A stretch of 64,000 bases of DNA. Origin: Lytechinus pictus (lineage: Eukaryota). How positions within the stretch are numbered: position 1 is the stretch's first letter; every line of letters starts with the position of its first letter. The stretch lies in the NCBI RefSeq assembly GCF_037042905.1, contig NC_087250.1, positions 21,454,001 through 21,518,000 of the forward strand. The letters run 5' to 3'. The notes below the pieces were generated by a model, which saw only the letters and a list, made by a program, of their open reading frames with translations, made no database searches and was not told the DNA's origin. The position numbers and the translations under genes were made by a program. Positions 33,195-51,536 of this stretch are shown here, one piece after another.

Positions 33195-33829
33195 TGTAAA
33201 GAAATGAATGAAGAGAACAATGGTTGGCGTAGCTTAAATCAAGGTTCCCCAGAGCTATCTACCCTTTGGAAAAATTGGTGATGCCGAAACCACTAGACCA
33301 CAGAGGTATGATGTAGTCTGCAGGCACAGACCCTCATTGGAACTTTGATCAACAAGTGTGCCTCCACGCAAAGACTAGCACATACAAAACTTGCTGTTCC
33401 AATACAGCAATTCGCGAGAGAGCCTTCAGTACACAAGGCATGAGTAGGCTCCACATTCAGACCCTTAACTCGAGCGAAGGGTTTGCCCAGCAGACTAGGT
33501 ATGATGTACGGTATACGTGTACTGTATCAAAGCAATAGCTTTGATCCAGCTGAGGCATGGCGGCTTGTCATTGTTCAAAACCCACCTTCACCCGACAAAG
33601 GAAATTATAATTGGTAGAGTGTCGAAAATCTGTCTATCTGACGGTCAATCGGATCGGGGTCGCCCTAGCCACTAACCCGTCTCTGTGGTCTAGTGGCTAA
33701 GGCACCGGCGTTCAAAGCTGGGGTCCCGGGTTCGATTCCCGGCAGAGACATTTTTTCGGCATCACCAATTTTTCCAAAGGGTTGATTTAAGCTACGCCTA
33801 CCATTGTTCTCTTCATTCATTTATTTACA
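33195..33829. mobile_element. Non-autonomous DNA transposon with TGT...ACA termini and 4-bp TSD ATAT (Ginger-like), with a tRNA-like gene in its right arm
   Basis: ATAT|TGTAAAGAAATGAATGAAGAGAACAATGG ... CCATTGTTCTCTTCATTCATTTATTTACA|ATAT; arms match over 75-110 bp. Confidence 0.8.
33679..33750 (+). tRNA. tRNA-like gene, 72 nt, anticodon TCA (33712-33714), short variable loop; possible opal suppressor or transposon-borne pseudo-tRNA
   Basis: Acceptor GTCTCTG/CAGAGAC, D stem GTCT/AGGC, anticodon stem CCGGC/GCTGG with loop GTTCAAA, T stem CCGGG/CCCGG with loop TTCGATT, discriminator A, then TTTTTT. Confidence 0.7.
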
Positions 33830-38199: not shown

Positions 38200-41004
38200 T
38201 AAGCATGCATTCCCAGGTTCGGCAGTAACTTTGTAGCTTATGGAAGTCAATAAAATCGTGTTTTTGCCTGGTAAACCTATTTGGGTTCAACCGAGGGTCT
38301 GGTTCGGATTCTATAAAAGTAGAGACCCTGGAACTTTACTGCTGCATCCAATATGGTATTAAATATAAACACCTGGATGATCATAGCCTGGGAAGCGGGA
38401 TTGATGTTGGATATTTTGTACACCATAAGCAGAACCCCTGGAAATTAGGTTGGTATGTTAAATGTACAGATTTGACACAAATCTTCTTCATTTTTGGACA
38501 GAAAAATGTTTATGTAATTATTATTATTGTTGTAATTTTTAAAGACTAAATTTAGTTCTGTGTTGGAATAAATCTTTCTTTTTTCTTGTCATCTTTTTTC
38601 TTCTGAACAAAATCCCCTGGCATCATGGTCATTTGAAGTGAAACCCTTTTTCTTGGTCTTTTTAACAAACCAGCACCCCTTATTTCTAAACCTTTCCCAG
38701 GGCAGTGTGATCAATCATTCAGTTATTGAAATATGATTGAAATATGATTGAAATATTACAAAAGAGAACAATTACATTTAGCTGGTAGACCAAGCGGCTA
38801 TTCGATCCAGGAACGATTTGCTCAGCCGTACGCATGAATGATCATTCAATACAAAATAATGCAAAGAAAAGGAACGACCCTCGATAAATTTGATGCTGTG
38901 CTCATTTATTATATATATCTTTATTTTTCCACGGCATTTGCCGGCATGCATGCAACCACTAATTTCGGGGAAGGTAAATAGTTAAGAATTATAACTACAA
39001 TAATTCCTTTGATTTGCTCGTATCTGTATAGACAGCCACAATAATTTAGTTACTCATGAAAGATTGAAAAAAAGGAATAAAAGGCAGTAATACTCCCTCC
39101 GAAAGTATCTCAAAGGTGTGTATAAATTGATAGGAAGACAAAGCTTAAAGCATAGCCAGCTTTATCAACCTTTTTGTTTCAAATTAACTTATTATCCATG
39201 ATATTTTTTAAAGTCTCCTGGGATCACGGGGTGTCCTTCCCCATATCTTAAAAATAAAAACTATCATATATCTATTATTTTTTTTTCTTACAGTACCCTA
39301 TGAAATGTTTCCTTCCACTCATAAAAAAGATTGGTCGAAGTAAAAAAAAAAAATTGGTAAATATTTGTCCGATAAATAAAAGCGGTCTATACCAACCAAA
39401 TTCTAATAGATTTAAAACAAGAATAAAGTTGTCAATTTTGGCAATTTCTTTTTGATCGGATACATATAATCGATATAATCTGGGCCAATTCTTTTAAAAT
39501 TGTGATCAATAATTTCATTCTTGAAAGTCTATTGTAACCAAAAGTTGAATAAAACATTGAAAACGAAAAATAAACATCCTCCAGATTGTCCCGGTGTAAA
39601 ATTATAATGGGCCAGTCGTTAGTGTTATATACTCTCTGTTTAACATTAAATTTGCATTGGATTTCAAGGAGCGTATAAAAAGTCATAGTAAGGTACAATA
39701 AAGGCAATCTCAAACTGTTTACAATAATTTTTCTTAATAACCTTCCACAAGTCTGGGTTCCTTTATTGAAAATCCGTAGGGTATATGTATGCAGTAACAC
39801 AATATGTCATAAAACATGTCATAAAATGTCATAAAACAAATACAATACTCCAATACATTTTCAAAGTGAAACAAACACTCCTTAGCAAGTAATATATACA
39901 CACAGACTTAAGGCACCAAAATGAAACGAAAATAGTAAGATTGCGACGTATTTGCTAAGTTTCATACCGCCAGATTTTTGCTTGAATTTTTCTTCTATTT
40001 AAAACATGATGATACTCTGTAATTTCAAACTTATCTCTTCATGTTTATTATTGCTTTTGTTTTTCTTTCGCCAAATATATTTGGTCAAAATCTTAATGAT
40101 ATGTCTTTTGTGGTATATTATTTTATTTGGATCGAAATCACAAAGAGAATTGTTAATAGTTTTAAATAGAATTGCGACCCAAAAAGAGAGTTTTTTAACT
40201 TTGAGAGAAAAATCAGACATGTCGATAGATGATAGTGATGAATTATAATATATTTGGATTGATGTTTTTGTTTTTATCATTCATAATGTTCTATTTTTTG
40301 GCATGCAGGAAGTTGGTCTACATGTCAGAAAGCGTATTATAATATATTCTAAACTCATTTGATAGGATATGAAATCGGTCTAGTTTGGTCTACAATACAC
40401 TTCGTCTATTATTGTATCTATTAGATTGAGTGGGTATTTTCTAACATAATAATTAGAAAATAAACCCGTTGTAAAAAAGGTTATAACAATGAAATATAAT
40501 CGGACCAAGTTATCGCTATCAAGCGACAAGATGAGACAACCCATATGGTAGAAAAGGGCATCCTAGATCCATAAAAGGTAGGGTCCATTTAACCCAATGT
40601 TTAGTGAAAATTATAACAAAGTTTTCGAACTCTCGGGTAAAATGGACCCCTTAAATTTCGTGAATTTAGGATGCTTTTTGCTTAAACGCATTTGGGTATT
40701 TGCGACTGCCCGACCCAAAGCGATAATCTGTTGTGATGGCACAAACCGTGTGGACAAGGGACTTGTACAAACAATAGTGATTGATCCGGTCAATCTCATC
40801 TCTATCGATTTTTTATTCTTGTGATATTTTAAAATAGGAAATTTGTTCTTAGTAAATACAAATGAGCTCAACGATTTTCAAGGCAAGAAATCACGTAACA
40901 CCTGTGTCTGGGGCCACCTGTCTATACTTAAAACCTTCCTACAGTGGCCACTATAAAAACCAGGCATTTTTTCGTCGGTATGTCTATACAAGAACCTGTC
41001 TATA

Positions 41005-41567
41005 AGGGCAAAGAATCTTCACGTGAAAATACTGATAATATTGTACTAAATGTCGTGAAGGAGAAGTTGGGAGTCAATATCGGTATCGGCGACATCGACC
41101 GAAGTCACAGAGTTGGGCCTATCCGTAACATCCAACGTAGTAATGAGAGTGTCCAGGGTTCGTCGTCTGCTGCTAGTGCTGTTACTGACACCTCATCTTT
41201 GAGTTCTTCAGCTTCTTCTTCGACGTCATATGCCAGCAAGTTAACACCGTCACCATCTACCTCGAACAGGGATCGTCTTCATCATAGAGCAAGAATAGTC
41301 AAGCTCACCTCGTATCGTGCTCGCCAAACCATTCTCCTTTCTCGACGGAAGCTGAAAGGTACTGGAGTTTCCATCTCAGAAGATCTAACGGCTGAAAATT
41401 ATGGGATACTCAAAACAGCACGACAGTCGACAAAGGTCACAGCTTCATGGTCGAGTGATGGTCGAATCTTTGTGGCGTTACCGGCTTCAAATGGCAAAAC
41501 TGTCAAGAAACTCGCTAGATCACTAGAGGAAGCGAAGCAACTCTCATCATCTACTAGATCAAAATAG
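41005..41567 (+). pseudogene. CR1/L2-type LINE ORF1, C-terminal part (5'-truncated)
   Basis: ENTDNIVLNVVKEKLGV..DIDRSHRVG..RIVKLTSYRARQTIL..RRKLKGTGVSISEDLT..WSSDGRIFV; typical non-LTR ORF1 motifs. Confidence 0.8.
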
Positions 41568-42888: not shown

Positions 42889-43390
42889 ATGTCTTCTAAC
42901 TGTAGCTGTGTATTATGTAGCAGGCAATGTAACTTAACTTGTAATGATTGTTTCTTATGTAGGCCTTTAAGAAATGAACAAGAATCTGAAACTAGTTTTG
43001 ATGAAAATTATGGGTACTTTGAAAATTTGATAAATAATATTATACCCCTACGGAATTTGGAAATGCATTGAAATTACATGGTGAGAAAAATCTGATTTTG
43101 GCAAATTTCAATTGCCGTAGTTTAAAGTGTAATTTTGAGACATTCACTAATTGTCTTGATGAAATTGGTCAGAAATTGTCATTTATTGGTACTTGTGAAA
43201 CATGGCTCAATAATGAGGAAGAACATGAATGTATGATTCCAGGTTATACATTTGTAGGCAAACACAGACATAACAAAAGAGGAGGAGGCGTAGGCATGTA
43301 TATAAATGATTATATAAAATATATAAAACGCCCAGACTTGGTCACATTTATTGAAAATATCGAAAGCCTGTTCATTGAAATTCAAAATTT
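42889..43390 (+). pseudogene. LINE ORF2 N-terminus, APE endonuclease domain (frameshifted and truncated)
   Basis: NFNCRSL..FIGTCETWL..IPGYTFVGKHR..RGGGVGMYI..ESLFIEI motifs. Confidence 0.8.
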
Positions 43391-43900
43391 CTTGGTGGAA
43401 GCTGAATGGTGAGGTGAAGCTCTGTCCTGCAGGAAAATCTGTCCTTGAAAGAGGGAATGTAGCTGGAGGTCAGAATCTCTTGATACTGAATGCTGTCCAC
43501 GTACTCTGCAGATCTTTGTTGCACCACCAGATCTGATGTAGCCCCAAGATCTGCAGAGAAGATGGGACCATTTACAGCATTAGGTTTTTAACAGATTCTG
43601 ACCTCCAGCTACATTCTTACCTACCTACAAGGGCAGATTTTCCAGCAGGATGGAGCTCTTTGTCACACGTCAGCTTCCACCAAGAAATTTATTCAGCACA
43701 AGAAGATCAAATGTCTTGAGAATAGGACAGCACAGTCTCCAGACATGACTTTTATTGAGCATGTATGAAGCAGAATGAATGAGAGCACATGGAAACGAAG
43801 CCAAATAATGTGGGGGGAGTTGTGGAACACTCGTGAGGCCATCTTTTATGCCATTCTGATGCCTACATCAACAAACTGGTACGACCCCCTCCCAAGACCA
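43388..43900. pseudogene. Tc1-family transposase fragments, two copies in inverted orientation
   Basis: Plus strand GQIFQQDGALCHTSASTKKF..AQSPDMTFIEHV (DD34E region); 43388-43525 is a diverged reverse complement of about 43546-43690. Confidence 0.75.
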
Positions 43901-44560: not shown

Positions 44561-46024
44561 AATTTATGTCACTGTTCTCATTAGCGTAGATTAAATTTAA
44601 TTTCTCTGCTGCCAAATAATATTTTTAAACATTAGAATTAATCTGAAAGATATCACAGATCAGATGATTTTTGGTAAAGTTAGAAAGTGATTACTTCATC
44701 AGCAGTACCTGCGACAAGACTTATGTACATTACAGTAATACGCTAATGGTTTTCTGCGGTTGTAATAGTTTAACTACTTGAGGTATTAATACCTTATTAT
44801 GAAATACCTTACTTCGTTTTGTATATCTTTGCATTTGTTGGTCATTTGCTATTATCAGGGGAAGCGGAATTGCAATAAACTTGTACTAAATCTTTTAAAA
44901 TACACGAACTACCCTTTCTGCATGGTCATTCATTAGGGATATAACTGTTTGGGGATACAATTGCATAAGGCCTATGTGTGTTAACATATATCCATATATC
45001 TCTCTAACTATGCCATCAAAATTAGAAATAACTGCTATCGAATATTTATTTCGGCACCTTCGGAGTTGACGCTGATTAAAGGTACGACCTGGATCTGTTA
45101 AAAAAACACGAACTTTGAGAGATTGTGTAGATGAATCAGGGAGAACACCTGGTTATTTCTTCATCTTTAGCCTGCAACATCATAGCACTGTCATCGAAAT
45201 GTATCTATACCATATTTCATGTCGTAGATGGCGCCCTTAGGTTTTGTGACGGAGATAACACAGAATTACGGGACATAAAATATCCGACAAAATTGTTGTT
45301 TTCTTGCAAAATTTTCAACATGTACTCATATTTACATATATTCATTCAAGAAAAGAACTATCATCGGTATTTCTCAGGCACAGAGCCTAATATAATATTC
45401 ATCCATTCGGAATTTATGAAATTATGATTCAATTTTGATGATATCGTCGGGACATGCGGTTGTATTAGGGGGTTCGGCACATTCAGACAAAACAACAACA
45501 AAAAATCACCGAACAGATTAATTTCTCCAAACTCCGTTAATATACATTGTTAAAGACATTCATGTCAGCATAAATAGAGAAAAGTTAAAGTTAAAATCAC
45601 ATAAATATTTCTTTGATTATCATGATTATTATGATTATCGGGACACAAAAGGAGACACTTAAGTTTGCGAAGTATCACCATCATAATGAGTGACCTGTGC
45701 TTTTGTGCTCCTGGAAAATCTTGGTAAAAACATAGCTTAGCCTTGACATAACCCTCTTACTACGGTTATTGAGTCTTCAATTGAGAAGATTAACAAAAAC
45801 TGACATTTGAACAAAATCAACAGGAGCAGTACTCAACCACGTAGCCAGGATTTCATTTAGGAGGGGGCGGTAAATGCACGCGAAGCATGCCAACAATTAA
45901 AGAGCGCGCGAAGCGCGCTCCCTAGGAGATGGGTGCAGGGAGGGGGAGTTTCCCCCTCCCTTGCGAAGCGCGAAGTTTTCGGTGTTTCATAAATTAAAAT
46001 TAAAATGAGCCGTCTCTCCTGTCT

Positions 46025-48522
46025 CTAGTATTATATATTTGTTAGAAGTATGGATAGACATGATAGAGACGAAGGATTTTCGATTTAAATCTGATACATT
46101 TAAAGGAAATGTTTTTAACAATAAATTTGTACGAATTCAAGGGAAATGCATATTTAACCAAAAGGTATGTGAAAATAATATTTACAGAGTGAAAAAAATT
46201 ATGGATTATGATAGAAACTTAAGGTCATTTTCGTACTTCCAAAGACAGGGTTTAAACATAAATGATTTTCATTTGATAGAGTCAATTTATAAAACTATTC
46301 CAGTCAGCTGGAAACGAAATATGAAAATAGATAGCAAAGAGGCTTCTCTTAGGGAAGGAATATCATTTATATCTGAAAAAGAATTTGTCAATAGATCTAG
46401 AGGAGTTAGTATCCAAAAGGGGGGGGGGGGGGGGTTGGGAGGTAGAACATCACTTTTTGTCTCACCTGCATAGCAGAGTGAGACTATAGGCGCCGCTTTT
46501 CCGACGGCGGCGGCGGCGGCGTCAACACCAAATCTTAACCTTAGGTTAAGTTTTTGAAATGACAGCATAACTTAGAAAGTATATGGACCTAGTTCATGAA
46601 ACTTGGCCATAAGGTTAATCAAGTATTACTGAACATCCTGCCTGAGTTTCATATCACATGACCAAGGTCAAAGGTCATTTAGGGTCAATGAACTTAGACC
46701 ATGTTGGGGGAATCAACATCAAAATCTTAACCTAAGGTTAAGTTTTTGAAATGTCATCATAACTTAGAAAATATATGGACCTAGTTCATGAAACTTATAC
46801 ATAAGGTTAATCAAGTATCACTGAACATCCTGCATGAGTTTCACGTCACATGACCAAGGTCAAAGGTCATTTAGGGTCAATGAACTTTGGCCGAATTGGG
46901 GGTATCTGTTGAATTACCATCATAACTTTGAAAGTTTATGGATCTGATTCATGAAACTTGGACATAATAGTAATCAAGTATTACTGAACATCCTGTGCAA
47001 GTTTCAGGTCACATGATCAAGGTCAAAGGTCATTTAGGGTCAATGAACTTTGGCCAAATTGGGGTATTTGTTGAATTACAGCCATAAATTTGAAAGTGTG
47101 TTGGTCTAGTTCATAAAACTTGGACATAATAGTAATCAAGTATCACTGAACATCCTGTGCGAGTTTCAGGTCACATGATCAAGGTCAAAGGTCATGTAAG
47201 GTCAAAGAACTTTGGCCACGTTGGGGGTATTTGTTGAATTGCCATCATATCTCTATGAGTGTATTGGTCTAGTTCATAAAACGTGGAAATAAGAGTAACC
47301 AAGTATCACTGAACATCTTGTGCGAGTTATAGTAGTTTTCAAAATCAGCACTGCTGCTATATTGAATCGCGTGATGCAGGTGAGACGGCCAGAGGCATTC
47401 CACTTGTTATCTTTTTTTTCTCTCTTATCATTTCATACATCTTGTTAATATTTCATTTTGTAATTGCTGAAACGCATTAGTATTAATTTCAAGTATCTTT
47501 GAAGTTTGATGTACAGGTATAATTTGTATGATTATACTTGTTATGGTTTTATTGTATAATTTATAATCATGTTTCAAATAATATGTACAACTTGCTTATG
47601 GAATGTGAATGTGTATTTTGATTTGAGAGAATTCAATAAAACATCCTTAAAAAATATTTTAAAAAATCGAAAAGAAGTTTTGTATTTTTGCAGATTTCAG
47701 TCGTTTTATTTTTCATTAGTTTGAAATCTTTTTTAATCGATTACAATATTGATTAGAGGAAGAAACATATCGCCATCTATTTTTGGAATGTGAATATGCT
47801 TGTTTGGTTTGGGATAATTGTAAGAAGATGTTTGGTTTTATTTCGACGGGCAATTTAAGCTGGGAGGAAATTCTTGTAGGTGTAGAATTAAATGACGAAG
47901 GAAAGGAACGTTTAGTCAATCATTTTCTAATCTTTGTTAAATTTTTAATCTTCAAAGGGAAGGAAAAGGGTGCACTTATAACCATGGATGAAATTAAAAG
48001 GAAATTTAAAGAAGAAGAATGGGAAGAAAGAAGGCTGGCGCTAGGTAGAGGTAAGATGTCTCTACATTTAAGGAAATGGGAAAATCTGAATTAAAAGAAT
48101 ATATAGGGAGAGTGAGGCAAAGGTATATATACAACGAGAGACAAAACCACACAAAAAATACAAAAATAAATAAATACGGAGAATTGTAGTCCCTTCCATG
48201 TAGAGTATAGGCATAAAAAGGGGAGGGTGCTCCTAACCTAGGGACCGGGGGGGGGGGTTGGGAGGTAGAACAACACTTTTTATCTTTTTTTTTCTCTCTT
48301 ATCATTCATACATCTTGTTAATATTTCATTTTGTAATTGCTGAAACGCATTAGTATTAATTTCTAGTATCTTTGAAGTTTGATGTATAGTTTGTATAATT
48401 ATATTTGTTATGGATTTATTGTATAATTTATAATCATGTTTCAAATAGTTTGTACAACTTGCTTATGGAATGTGAATGTTTATTTTGATTTGAGAGAATA
48501 CAATAAAACATCCTTAAAAAAA
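46025..48522 (+). mobile_element. L1/Tx1-type LINE remnants: post-RT ORF2 piece (46039-46390), C-terminal zinc-knuckle piece (about 47680-48094), duplicated 3' UTR ending in AATAAA and poly(A)
   Basis: NNKFVRIQGK..IPVSWK and ETYRHLFLECEYACLVW..LRKWENLN* motifs; 3' UTR at 46415-47655 and again at 48245-48522. Confidence 0.75.
46454..47408 (+). mobile_element. Helentron-type element, copy 3, inserted into a T run of the LINE 3' UTR
   Basis: Empty site at 48265-48290 (CACTTTTTATC) shows insertion in a T run without a TSD. Confidence 0.85.
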
Positions 48523-49410: not shown

Positions 49411-50189
49411 TTAATAAATGGCTTGTAATTCTTTGGCCGGGTAGTCTATTAAAGGCGCTTGATCACAAAAGTCATGTGTTGTGTCCTTGGTCACGGCACT
49501 TGTGTCCGTGAGCAAGGAATTTAATCAACAATTTTATTCTTCATTCAAACACATGACAATGATAGAGCATTATTTATATATTTATGTGTGCACTTGTTTA
49601 AAAACATCAATGAATTTTATTCAGTAGAATAGAAATGGTTTTGTAGTGTTCTCCTGAATTTCACAGTCATTTGCATAATTAATTACTTCAAATTTATTCA
49701 AAACTACTCTTCAGCCTTGTAGTTTACAGCCGGCCCTAGGCATTTTGTGCGAATTTTTGCGACTGGAACACGAAGGTTAAGATTAATTGCCGATTGAAAT
49801 GGCCTATCAAGATCATCGTTGCATTCGTATTTTATTCAGTAGGCTATCGAGGAACCAATCAGAATTGTTCTTTCATATTAGCGATTAGTTGATAACCTGT
49901 GTGTTACAGGCCCCAATAGTCGAGATCGGAAGAGGGGGTGAATTTGATCTGGTCTTGCCCATTTCAAATAATTATGACCAAAACAGAGTGATATTCATTC
50001 TCAGACACGTTAACCAAACGCTTCAGTGCCTCAACAAAATTAGACTTACAATCGATTATAACTTATAAAGTAAAAGAAAAAAAGCGAAAATGGAACTTGT
50101 TTATTTATAATGTGAATGTGTCCTATGAAGTTATTAATCACTCATTAATAAGCTATCTTGGCCGATTCTTAAAAATGCAGTTTTCACAA

Positions 50190-50372
50190 CTGGGCGTTGT
50201 GGCGTGCGCCTGTAATCCAAGCTATGTGGGGAAGTTACAAATTGATGCAGAGGTTCGAGGTACGAGCCCTGGTCACGTCTTTCGGATGGTGACGTAAAAG
50301 GTCGGTCCCAGACGTAAATAAACATATCTGATTGATACACGTCTGACAAAACTCAAATACACACACACACAA
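50190..50372 (+). mobile_element. Chimeric SINE: 7SL-RNA-derived head, tRNA T-arm remnant, Deu-domain-like segment, (AC)n tail
   Basis: CTGGGCGTTGTGGCGTGCGCCTGTAATCCAAGCTA (7SL 5' end); GAGGTTCGAGGTACGAGCCCTGG; GTCTTTCGGATGGTGACGTAAAAGGTCGGTCCC; flanked by CACAA. Confidence 0.7.
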
Positions 50373-51536
50373 ACGAATTAATGGTAAAAACGGTTTTAAT
50401 CGATTACAATATTGATATTATATAATTAAAAAAAATAATATAATTTATTTATACAAAAATAAACGGAGCCGTGGCCGAGTGGACTAAGGCGCCTAACATC
50501 ACTTTTAAATGCACTGTCAATGATTATAAAGTCATTCATCTTTTTTTTATTTTTTTTTATTATGTTTAAAGGCTTTTCAGTCTTTTTAGACTATTTAATC
50601 TGGGGTGATTCTTTAAAATGCAGCTTTCATAAGAAAGGTAATGGTTGAAGCAAAAGTACTTTGTTATATTAGCAGATTTCTGTCATATTATTTATTTATT
50701 GTTGGTTTGAAATTTTTTTAAATTGATTTCAACATTGATAAAAAATTATAATTACTTTATACAAAAATAAAATAAAACAATTTTATTGTCATAGTTTTAA
50801 GGCGCCTGGCAATACATGGAAAGTCCGGGGTTCGATCCTCGGCGGCGGTACCAATGCCTGTTTTTAATCGATAATGGTCTTTTATCCTGCATTCAAATAA
50901 ATGAACATGCTAAACACACTCTTGGTAACTAGGTGTGCACTTGTAAAAAAATTAATTGATAAAATTAAAATAACAAATAAAACAAGTAACTTTAATAATA
51001 CAAAAATAAAATGAGTCATAACCGAGCGGTCTAAAGGGCTTGACAATACATGGAAAGTCCGGGGTTCGATCTTCGATAATGGTCTTTTATCATGCATTCA
51101 AATAAATGAGAATGGTATACGCATTTTGGTAACTAGGTGTGCACTTGCTAAAAAAATATAAAAGCTCAAATTTGTTTCACTGTCGAAATTGTTACTTCGA
51201 ACAGTCGAATGCATTAAGAAATCTGTTTCGATCCAGACCCCCATGATCGATACCATGGTTTGCTTTCAATCGAAACATGCCGATAACCAATCAAGATCGT
51301 CGTCAAACGCTCAATCTGTTCCTAAGATTTGACTATCAGCCATTTAGATTTGTTCTTTCATTCTTGTGATTTAAATGGGTAGCGACCAACACTGACTCTG
51401 TTCATGTTTTAAGAATGGCTAGTTTACAAAAGGTTTTCCCCACAAACACCAAAAAACACAAAATCCAATACCATACATGAATGGCTGGTCTCAAAATGCA
51501 TATTTTGTTAAATTAGACAAACTGAAGTTGATTTAG

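What the first reader, a model, noticed from the sequence alone, without database searches (positions are those of the whole stretch)
50190..50372. Candidate 7SL-derived (Alu-like) chimeric SINE in a non-mammalian genome
Seen: the head (A)CTGGGCGTTGTGGCGTGCGCCTGTAATCCAAGCTA matches, by my hand alignment, 28 of the first 36 nt of the human 7SL 5' end as I recall it (GCCGGGCGCGGTGGCGCGTGCCTGTAGTCCCAGCTA). After it come a tRNA variable-loop/T-arm remnant (GAGGTTCGAGGTACGAGCCCTGG), a segment resembling the Deu domain of DeuSINEs (TCTTTCGGATG..GACGTAAAA..GGTCCC), and an (AC)n tail. It is flanked by CACAA, and a diverged empty-site-like sequence lies at about 50611-50646. Established: 7SL-derived SINEs are rare, known mainly from Euarchontoglires (Alu/B1) and hagfish. 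Inference: this may be an independent origin of a 7SL-headed SINE by fusion with a tRNA-DeuSINE in an echinoderm.
Basis: partly seen in the sequence, partly recalled or inferred. Interest (0 to 1): 0.85.

Follow-up and report, generated by a model that had tools for sequence, protein, structure and literature searches.

The report
Sea-urchin SINE with 7SL RNA head
This is one copy of a young, roughly 1,500-copy jumping element in a sea urchin whose first 47 bases match the animal's own signal-recognition-particle (7SL) RNA, as in human Alu, and whose tail resembles that of an intact autonomous retrotransposon that likely copies it; such 7SL-headed elements appear to be described so far only in a few vertebrates.

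Summary
Confirmed. Window 50189-50372 is one copy of a dispersed SINE family, about 1,500-1,700 copies (estimate), median 97% identity, with short target-site duplications and 5'-truncated copies, in a sea urchin (bindin E 1.5e-67). Its first 47 nt match the host's own 7SL genes at 40-41 of 47 positions; differences lie only in one loop or one compensated pair. Nothing else derives from 7SL, unlike Alu, B1, Urop and the hagfish element, which keep both 7SL ends. Next come a tRNA-like B-box segment, the first ~36 nt of the Deu domain, a stem-loop tail and (AC)n. New here: the tail has the same fold as, and compensatory changes relative to, the 3' ends of RNase H-bearing I-group LINEs; one family has an intact 1,239-aa ORF2 and abuts SINE copies. 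The head equals the 46-nt domain reported as minimal for Alu retrotransposition; SRP9/14 binding and Pol III transcription are inferred, not shown. The paper searches found no report outside vertebrates; Repbase and Dfam were not checkable. This scan noted the same family six times before, at other copies in this genome.

The parts
50185..50189 (+). Left copy of 5-bp target-site duplication (overlaps element nt 1)
   Evidence: Sequence; family-wide TSD excess over shuffled pairs
50189..50235 (+). 7SL-derived head = 5' Alu domain (closing helix nt 1-3/45-47, helix 4-9/18-23, U-turn, helix 28-30/42-44, loop-loop triplets 13-15/33-35); carries the predicted A box
   Evidence: Rfam SRP hit; 40-41 of 47 identical to host 7SL genes; structural hallmarks per PMC12265939 passages; A-box position per PMC7245038
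50236..50273 (+). tRNA-like 3' half with B box; a 7-nt unit is single or doubled across copies; B box damaged at 50262 in this copy
50274..50309 (+). First ~36 nt of the Deu/Nin central domain; many 5'-truncated copies begin at its start
   Evidence: truncation points
50309..50358 (+). LINE-related 3' tail: two-part stem-loop 50309-50345 plus A-rich spacer
   Evidence: Fold z -5.1 for copy L010, z -2.9 for this copy; homology and same fold as I-group LINE 3' ends
50359..50371 (+). (AC)n terminal repeat
   Evidence: Sequence; shared by copies
50368..50372 (+). Right copy of target-site duplication
   Evidence: Sequence
50577..50632 (+). Diverged local duplicate of the upstream flank without the SINE (approximate empty site; not part of the element)
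   Evidence: 39 of 56 columns

Best explanation
The stretch is one copy of a sea-urchin SINE family built from the 5' Alu domain of the host's own 7SL RNA, a tRNA-like B-box segment, a short piece of the Deu domain and a stem-loop tail shared with RNase H-bearing I-group LINEs, which likely copy it by target-primed reverse transcription of a predicted Pol III transcript. Shown: composition, copy number, TSDs, 5' truncations, tail homology, an intact candidate partner LINE. Inferred: Pol III uses the 7SL A box with the tRNA-type B box; the LINE's ORF2 protein recognises the 3' stem-loop; the family arose when reverse transcriptase switched from a tRNA-DeuSINE RNA to the 5' end of 7SL RNA, as proposed for 5S-headed DeuSINEs; the head folds into the SRP9/14-binding domain and likely docks the RNA at ribosomes making ORF2p, as modelled for Alu (about 60% for this last step).
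For: Copy number: exact head motif 981 (control 0, includes 7 genes), exact Deu motif 1,133 (control 1), tail 1,457 with up to 2 mismatches (control 31); capture-recapture 135 in about 66 Mb, scaling to about 1,650. 43 of 55 copies chosen by body or tail carry the head, median 97% identity; 40 of 40 chosen by head reach the tail. TSD of 5 bp or more in 35 of 77 solo copies vs 9.8% of shuffled pairs; 10 bp or more in 13 of 77 vs 0.6% (17 of 94 tandem or AC-flanked copies dropped). Head: all 6 differences from the closest 7SL paralog (L037) lie in the 11-nt loop; against the other six genes the two extra differences are one compensated pair; the commonest head indel (17 of 43) is in the same loop. 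No other 7SL part is present (score 13 vs shuffled mean 15.4). Tail: same dot-bracket fold in SINE, LINE A and LINE B, with A-U to G-C and A-U to U-A swaps. LINE B copy L378: ORF1 364 aa, ORF2 1,239 aa with endonuclease, RT and RNase H; 6 copies are 95.6-99.6% identical, about the SINE's age. SINE copies abut LINE tails at L316, L315, L238 and L349. PMC11760393 (part 1 and passages): a 46-nt 5' Alu domain binds SRP9/14 and supports retrotransposition.
Against: No expression, binding or mobilisation data were obtained. The tail match to the LINEs is short (about 55 nt); LINE A, the closer match (scores 47-61.5 vs shuffled maxima 34-51.5), is old and its examined copies are broken, while intact LINE B matches weakly by sequence (34-35.5 vs shuffled maxima 29.5-37) and is linked mainly by fold and adjacency. 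The LINEs end in (AAC)n, the SINE in (AC)n. No tRNA-headed parent with this tail was found. Substitution rates in copies do not differ between head stems and the rest (2.8-5.6% vs 2.8-4.1%), as expected for dead copies but giving no extra support. The whole-element MFE does not show the Alu fold (z -0.5).
Confidence: 0.8

Rival explanations
1. Promoter-only head: the 7SL piece was kept just because it supplies an A box and a start site; SRP9/14 binding plays no part, and LINE recognition rests on the 3' stem-loop alone.
For: The A box lies inside the head (PMC7245038). The tail is a LINE-type recognition stem-loop. Head-less copies exist, many starting at nt 85-88, though truncation during copying explains them too.
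Against: The head ends at the edge of the 5' Alu domain, far beyond the A box. Differences from host 7SL avoid the stems, U-turn and loop-loop triplets: 6 of 6 in 11 of 47 positions (hand arithmetic about 4e-5). Older, more diverged copies also carry the head.
Confidence: 0.35
2. The B-box segment came from the 7SL locus itself: a read-through 7SL transcript lost its middle and terminator, joining nt 1-47 to the B box that lies downstream of the gene, and then fused to a Deu-tail module.
For: 6 of 7 host 7SL genes have a B box at +316 to +340, past the terminator. The SINE segment aligns to that flank with scores 36-39 for four genes.
Against: tRNA-SINE heads from the same genome score as well (39-41); the other three genes score 12-29; tRNA-head-then-Deu is the usual order; the closest paralog L037 lacks the downstream B box.
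Confidence: 0.2
3. Already catalogued: the family is in Repbase or Dfam, perhaps filed as a tRNA SINE such as a relative of SINE2-3_SP.
For: Older subfamilies suggest age; run indexes hold the element under two organism labels; SINE2-3_SP is a known urchin DeuSINE (PMC3747384 table) whose sequence I could not see.
Against: PMC10886601 (2024, passages) and PMC13023118 (2026, part 1 and passages) list 7SL SINEs only from mammals and hagfish. This genome has a separate tRNA-headed full-Deu SINE (L132) that fits the listed description of SINE2-3_SP better.
Confidence: 0.15
4. Artefact: human Alu contamination, a one-off 7SL pseudogene chimera, or chance likeness of a tRNA-SINE head.
For: One urchin tRNA-SINE head shares about 10 nt with the 7SL start (by eye).
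Against: Head is identical to host 7SL over nt 4-30; over a thousand dispersed copies with TSDs, some inside host repeats.
Confidence: 0.02

Closest known systems
SINE1-1_EBu (Ebu1-1), hagfish (Kojima 2020, PMC7245038)
   Same: Independent 7SL-headed chimeric SINE outside mammals; young; similar copy number (2,363 full-length); non-L1 partner; microsatellite tail.
   Different: Keeps both 7SL ends (its nt 1-96 and 97-140) and the 7SL B box, has an RTE bipartite tail and ~17-bp TSDs. The urchin element keeps only nt 1-47, takes its B box from elsewhere, has a Deu piece, an I-group-type tail and short variable TSDs.
Alu, B1, Tu and shrew-mole Urop (PMC13023118)
   Same: 5' Alu domain with A box, U-turn triad and loop-loop triplets.
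   Different: All carry the ~183-nt central deletion with 5' and 3' 7SL parts, poly(A) tails and L1 mobilisation; none of these holds here.
5S-headed DeuSINEs (AmnSINE1, SINE3, OS-SINE1)
   Same: Same build: a non-tRNA Pol III RNA 5' end fused to a partial tRNA head followed by Deu, attributed to template switching (PMC4824008 part 3; PMC4758252 passages).
   Different: Head is 7SL rather than 5S; only ~36 nt of Deu; listed partners are CR1-group (PMC3747384 table), not I-group.
Sea-urchin DeuSINE SINE2-3_SP
   Same: Deu domain, same taxon.
   Different: Listed as tRNA-headed with a CR1 partner (PMC3747384 table); sequence not seen. L132 is a candidate counterpart in this genome and is a different element.
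Nimb-partnered mollusc Meta/V SINEs (PMC11481361, PMC4758252)
   Same: I-group partner; (CA)n or (CAAA)n ends.
   Different: tRNA heads; no Deu-Nimb pairing among the partnerships in the passages read.

Membership tests
SINE (SINEBase definition) | Short (<1 kb), interspersed, at least 100 copies | tested here: met
   184 nt; 981-1,457 motif matches on many contigs
SINE (SINEBase definition) | At least 60% identity to tRNA, 5S or 7SL over at least 60 nt | tested here: not met
   7SL match covers 47 nt only; the tRNA-like part adds ~38 nt from another source. Formal length rule from PMC3531059 passage
SINE (SINEBase definition) | Retroposition marks: TSDs, 5' truncation, simple-repeat tail | tested here: met
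SINE (SINEBase definition) | Pol III transcription | not tested
   A- and B-box-like motifs present; no read evidence obtained
SINE1 (7SL-headed SINE, Repbase sense) | 5' head derived from 7SL RNA | tested here: met
SINE1 (7SL-headed SINE, Repbase sense) | Uniform chimeric structure across copies, not a 7SL retrocopy | tested here: met
   40 of 40 heads joined to the tail, one of 12 matches (L137) was a bare 7SL fragment and one (L144) a head cut off by other sequence
Alu/B1/Urop/Ebu1-1 type | Both 5' and 3' 7SL parts around a central deletion | tested here: not met
   No match beyond nt 47
Alu/B1/Urop/Ebu1-1 type | 5' Alu-domain fold: U-turn triad, loop-loop pseudoknot, closing helices | tested here: met
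   By sequence only: triad in 35 of 43 copies, pseudoknot pairs 37 of 43, helices 28-38 of 43; hallmarks
Alu/B1/Urop/Ebu1-1 type | SRP9/14 binding | not testable with these tools
   Needs a binding assay; the SRP9 gene search was uninformative
Alu/B1/Urop | Poly(A) tail and L1 mobilisation | tested here: not met
   (AC)n end and I-group-like stem-loop
DeuSINE superfamily | Deu/Nin central domain (70-330 bp in described families) | tested here: inconclusive
   Only the first ~36 nt are present, shorter than the 70-bp minimum in PMC4824008 part 3
Partner LINE: I group | APE endonuclease + RT + RNase H in ORF2 | tested here: met
   Pfam on L378 ORF2
Partner LINE: Nimb clade | RT phylogeny places it in Nimb | not tested
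   No reference sequences in session; the Nimb label is recalled from the C-terminal zinc-knuckle motif

The most novel reading that the evidence does not exclude
A fourth independent origin of 7SL-headed SINEs and the first outside vertebrates, in which evolution kept exactly the 46-47-nt SRP9/14-binding domain that experiments found minimal for Alu, bolted onto a tRNA/Deu body and moved by an I-group LINE: ribosome docking through SRP9/14 would then be a general, partner-independent SINE strategy and the 'universal 183-nt deletion' unnecessary.
Probability: 0.55. Interest if true: 0.82.

Novelty: new variant of a known kind. Interest (0 to 1): 0.72.

Why it matters
A 2026 paper (PMC13023118) calls independent 7SL-derived SINEs extremely rare, lists them only in supraprimates, hagfish and one shrew mole, and stresses that all share one central deletion. 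This family breaks both the taxonomic limit and the structural rule. Because the head stops at the edge of the domain reported as minimal for Alu mobility (PMC11760393), while LINE recognition sits in a separate 3' stem-loop, it separates promoter, ribosome-docking and RT-recognition functions that overlap in Alu. With an intact candidate partner LINE in the same genome, the question of why 7SL heads help SINEs becomes directly testable.

Tried and rejected
(1) I first suspected from memory that the central piece was the Meta domain; the printed alignments showed it is Deu. (2) Insertion bias next to a CTCF-like motif: a pattern drawn after seeing the data hit 14 of 89 sites vs 0.5% background, and a GACTAC pattern 9 of 89. 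In 40 freshly fetched sites both scored 0 of 40. Rejected as a general target preference. (3) Search for a tRNA-headed parent: the first 30 Deu-motif loci, 11 more without an exact head, 30 tail loci, 30 older-tail loci and 16 tail-only loci gave only family copies, truncated or degraded; a classical Deu spacing pattern gave 2 hits. (4) Searching the LINE with the SINE's exact tail failed; it was found through weak profile hits. (5) L149/L167/L174 looked like a LINE end but are duplicated sequence. (6) Whole-element MFE folding was uninformative. (7) SRP9 family search rang nowhere, controls included. (8) Pfam on 5 window ORFs gave nothing useful. (9) Alignment A2 was out of register in the loop and one row was mis-cut; not used for pair counts. 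(10) Tandem frequency is sample-dependent: 17 of 94 set aside but 1 of 40 multi-piece. No read data were laid, so expression and the second organism remain unverified. (12) Nishihara 2006 was not held; SINEBase supplements and one supplement file each of PMC4824008 and PMC4758252 could not be read; these may hold the SINE2-3_SP sequence.

Full report
Observation. Rfam finds Metazoa_SRP at 50189-50246 (29.5 bits, E 2.6e-5). The genome (812 Mb, 368 contigs) carries a bindin gene (E 1.5e-67), so the host is a sea urchin.

It is a family. A DNA search gave 1,756 first-look candidates; 40 were scored and gave 47 matches at 90-100% identity. Exact motifs gave 981 heads (control 0), 1,133 Deu starts (control 1) and 1,457 tails with up to two mismatches (control 31). 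Capture-recapture gave 135 copies in about 66 Mb, which scales to about 1,650; the Deu count corrected for misses gives about 1,475. Of 55 distinct copies chosen by body or tail, 43 carry the head (identity 69-99%, median 97%). All 40 copies chosen by head reach the tail. Older, more diverged copies with the same head exist. Target-site duplications are short and variable: 5 bp or more in 35 of 77 solo copies vs 9.8% of shuffled pairs, 10 bp or more in 13 of 77 vs 0.6% (17 of 94 tandem or AC-flanked copies set aside). Two copies (L051, L065) sit in the 163-bp repeat whose intact units lie in this window, with 5-6-bp duplications. 5'-truncated copies are common. The window copy was multiplied by segmental duplication, and its 'empty site' is only an approximate local duplicate.

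The head. The genome has 7 full-length 7SL genes. The first 47 nt match them at 40-41 positions. Against the closest paralog (L037) all 6 differences are in the 11-nt loop; against the other six genes the two further differences form one compensated pair that L037 shares with the SINE. The commonest head indel (17 of 43 copies) is in the same loop. The U-turn triad and loop-loop triplets that PMC12265939 (passages) names for SRP9/14 binding are kept in 35 and 37 of 43 copies. Nothing past nt 47 matches 7SL (score 13 vs shuffled mean 15.4). Per-copy substitution rates do not differ between stems and the rest, and the whole-element MFE does not recover this fold, so the structural case rests on homology. 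PMC11760393 (part 1 of 8 and passages) reports a 46-nt 5' Alu domain that binds SRP9/14 and supports retrotransposition.

The middle. Nt 48-85 carry a B box (damaged in this copy). The segment aligns as well to tRNA-SINE heads of this genome (scores 39-41) as to the 3' flank of four 7SL genes (36-39), since 6 of 7 of these genes have a downstream B box. Its source is undecided; a tRNA-SINE is more parsimonious. Nt 86-121 match the start of the Deu domain printed in PMC7245038 Fig. S4 and the tRNA-headed DeuSINE L132. No tRNA-headed parent with this tail was found.

The tail and partner. Nt 121-157 fold into a two-part stem-loop (z -5.1 for L010, -2.9 here). Weak profile hits led to a second 3' end (97 and 234 pattern matches, controls 0) with the same fold and compensatory swaps. 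Followed upstream, it ends a LINE with RNase H and a zinc knuckle (LINE A). A protein search showed related families. LINE B has the same terminal fold, six copies 95.6-99.6% identical, and a copy with ORF1 (364 aa) and an open 1,239-aa ORF2 holding endonuclease, RT and RNase H domains. SINE copies follow LINE tails at L316, L315 and L238, and a LINE B tail fragment follows a SINE at L349, consistent with template jumps by one enzyme. Against this: the sequence match to LINE B is at shuffle level, the LINE A copies examined are broken, and the terminal repeats differ. The clade is I group by domains; 'Nimb' is recalled, not tested.

Mechanism. Most likely Pol III transcribes the element from a 7SL A box and a tRNA-type B box; the 5' domain binds SRP9/14 and docks at ribosomes; ORF2p of an I-group LINE binds the 3' stem-loop and copies the RNA into the genome. 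The family likely arose by template switching onto the 7SL 5' end, as PMC4824008 (parts 2-3 of 6) proposes for 5S-headed DeuSINEs. Composition, copy number, retroposition marks and tail homology are shown. Transcription, binding, docking and origin are inferred.

Comparison and novelty. PMC7245038 (parts 1-3 of 4, supplement passages), PMC10886601 (passages) and PMC13023118 (part 1 of 5 and passages) list 7SL SINEs only in supraprimates, hagfish and a shrew mole, all with both 7SL ends. Searches listed no echinoderm or invertebrate case (listings seen; one search showed 30 of 1,217). Other papers seen as passages: PMC4758252, PMC3747384, PMC3531059, PMC5804259, PMC11481361. Repbase, Dfam, SINEBase supplements and Nishihara 2006 could not be seen. 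The element qualifies as a 7SL-headed SINE but not as an Alu-type member, misses SINEBase's 60-nt rule, and carries only part of Deu. The scan noted this family six times at other copies in this genome; these AI notes are not independent support, and none surfaced for a partner-LINE query.

A post hoc insertion bias near CTCF-like motifs (14 of 89) failed an independent test (0 of 40) and is rejected.

Verdict: real; new variant of a known kind; interest 0.72.

Noticed in passing
L031-L036, +316 to +340 from the 7SL start: 6 of 7 host 7SL genes have a canonical B box just downstream of the terminator, followed by a second T run, with no tRNA gene called. It recalls the downstream B box of yeast U6 (recalled); one paper search showed no such report in its listing.
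   Followed up: partly
L191, L192 (G000:C10:7.91-7.92 Mb): All three 7SL genes of the C10 cluster have a diverged (80-89%) copy of this SINE about 33 bp upstream, one with two; likely one insertion duplicated with the gene.
   Followed up: partly
element nt 85-88; L105, L106, L108, L149, L175, L181, L182, L185: 5' truncations cluster at the start of the Deu piece, the 5' edge of a small hairpin; an RT stall or a tRNA-like processing site are untested explanations.
   Followed up: no
L002, L003 (G000:C6:21.34 and 21.08 Mb): The window copy and both flanks are repeated twice nearby: one insertion multiplied by segmental duplication.
   Followed up: partly
L039-L044: SINE dimers or monomers with identical flanks on five contigs, apparently carried inside another mobile repeat.
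   Followed up: no
L196-L225: A short LINE A tail fragment rides inside another repeat family and accounts for most of 97 tail matches.
   Followed up: partly
one search hits, e.g. L316, L333, L336: Several families of RNase H-bearing LINEs have open ORF2 frames of 1,240-1,310 aa in multiple equal-scoring copies, suggesting recent activity.
   Followed up: partly
L116/L138: A variant copy with the 7SL-length loop and a different, more tRNA-like B-box segment; possibly a separate subfamily.
   Followed up: no
L132: tRNA-headed SINE with a long Deu domain, a candidate counterpart of SINE2-3_SP.
   Followed up: partly
window 50463-50500, 50800-50900, 51020-51075; 33679-33750: Fragments of another tRNA-headed repeat beside the element, and an ARAGORN tRNA-SeC call at 33679-33750.
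   Followed up: no
L226 and L114 flanks: A motif resembling a hammerhead ribozyme core (recalled) near LINE A and SINE copies; Rfam showed no such hit in L226.
   Followed up: partly
window 40932-41567, 43038-43412, 46009-46473, 47753-48094: ORF remnants that look like LINE ORF1, endonuclease and C-terminal pieces by eye; no Pfam support.
   Followed up: partly
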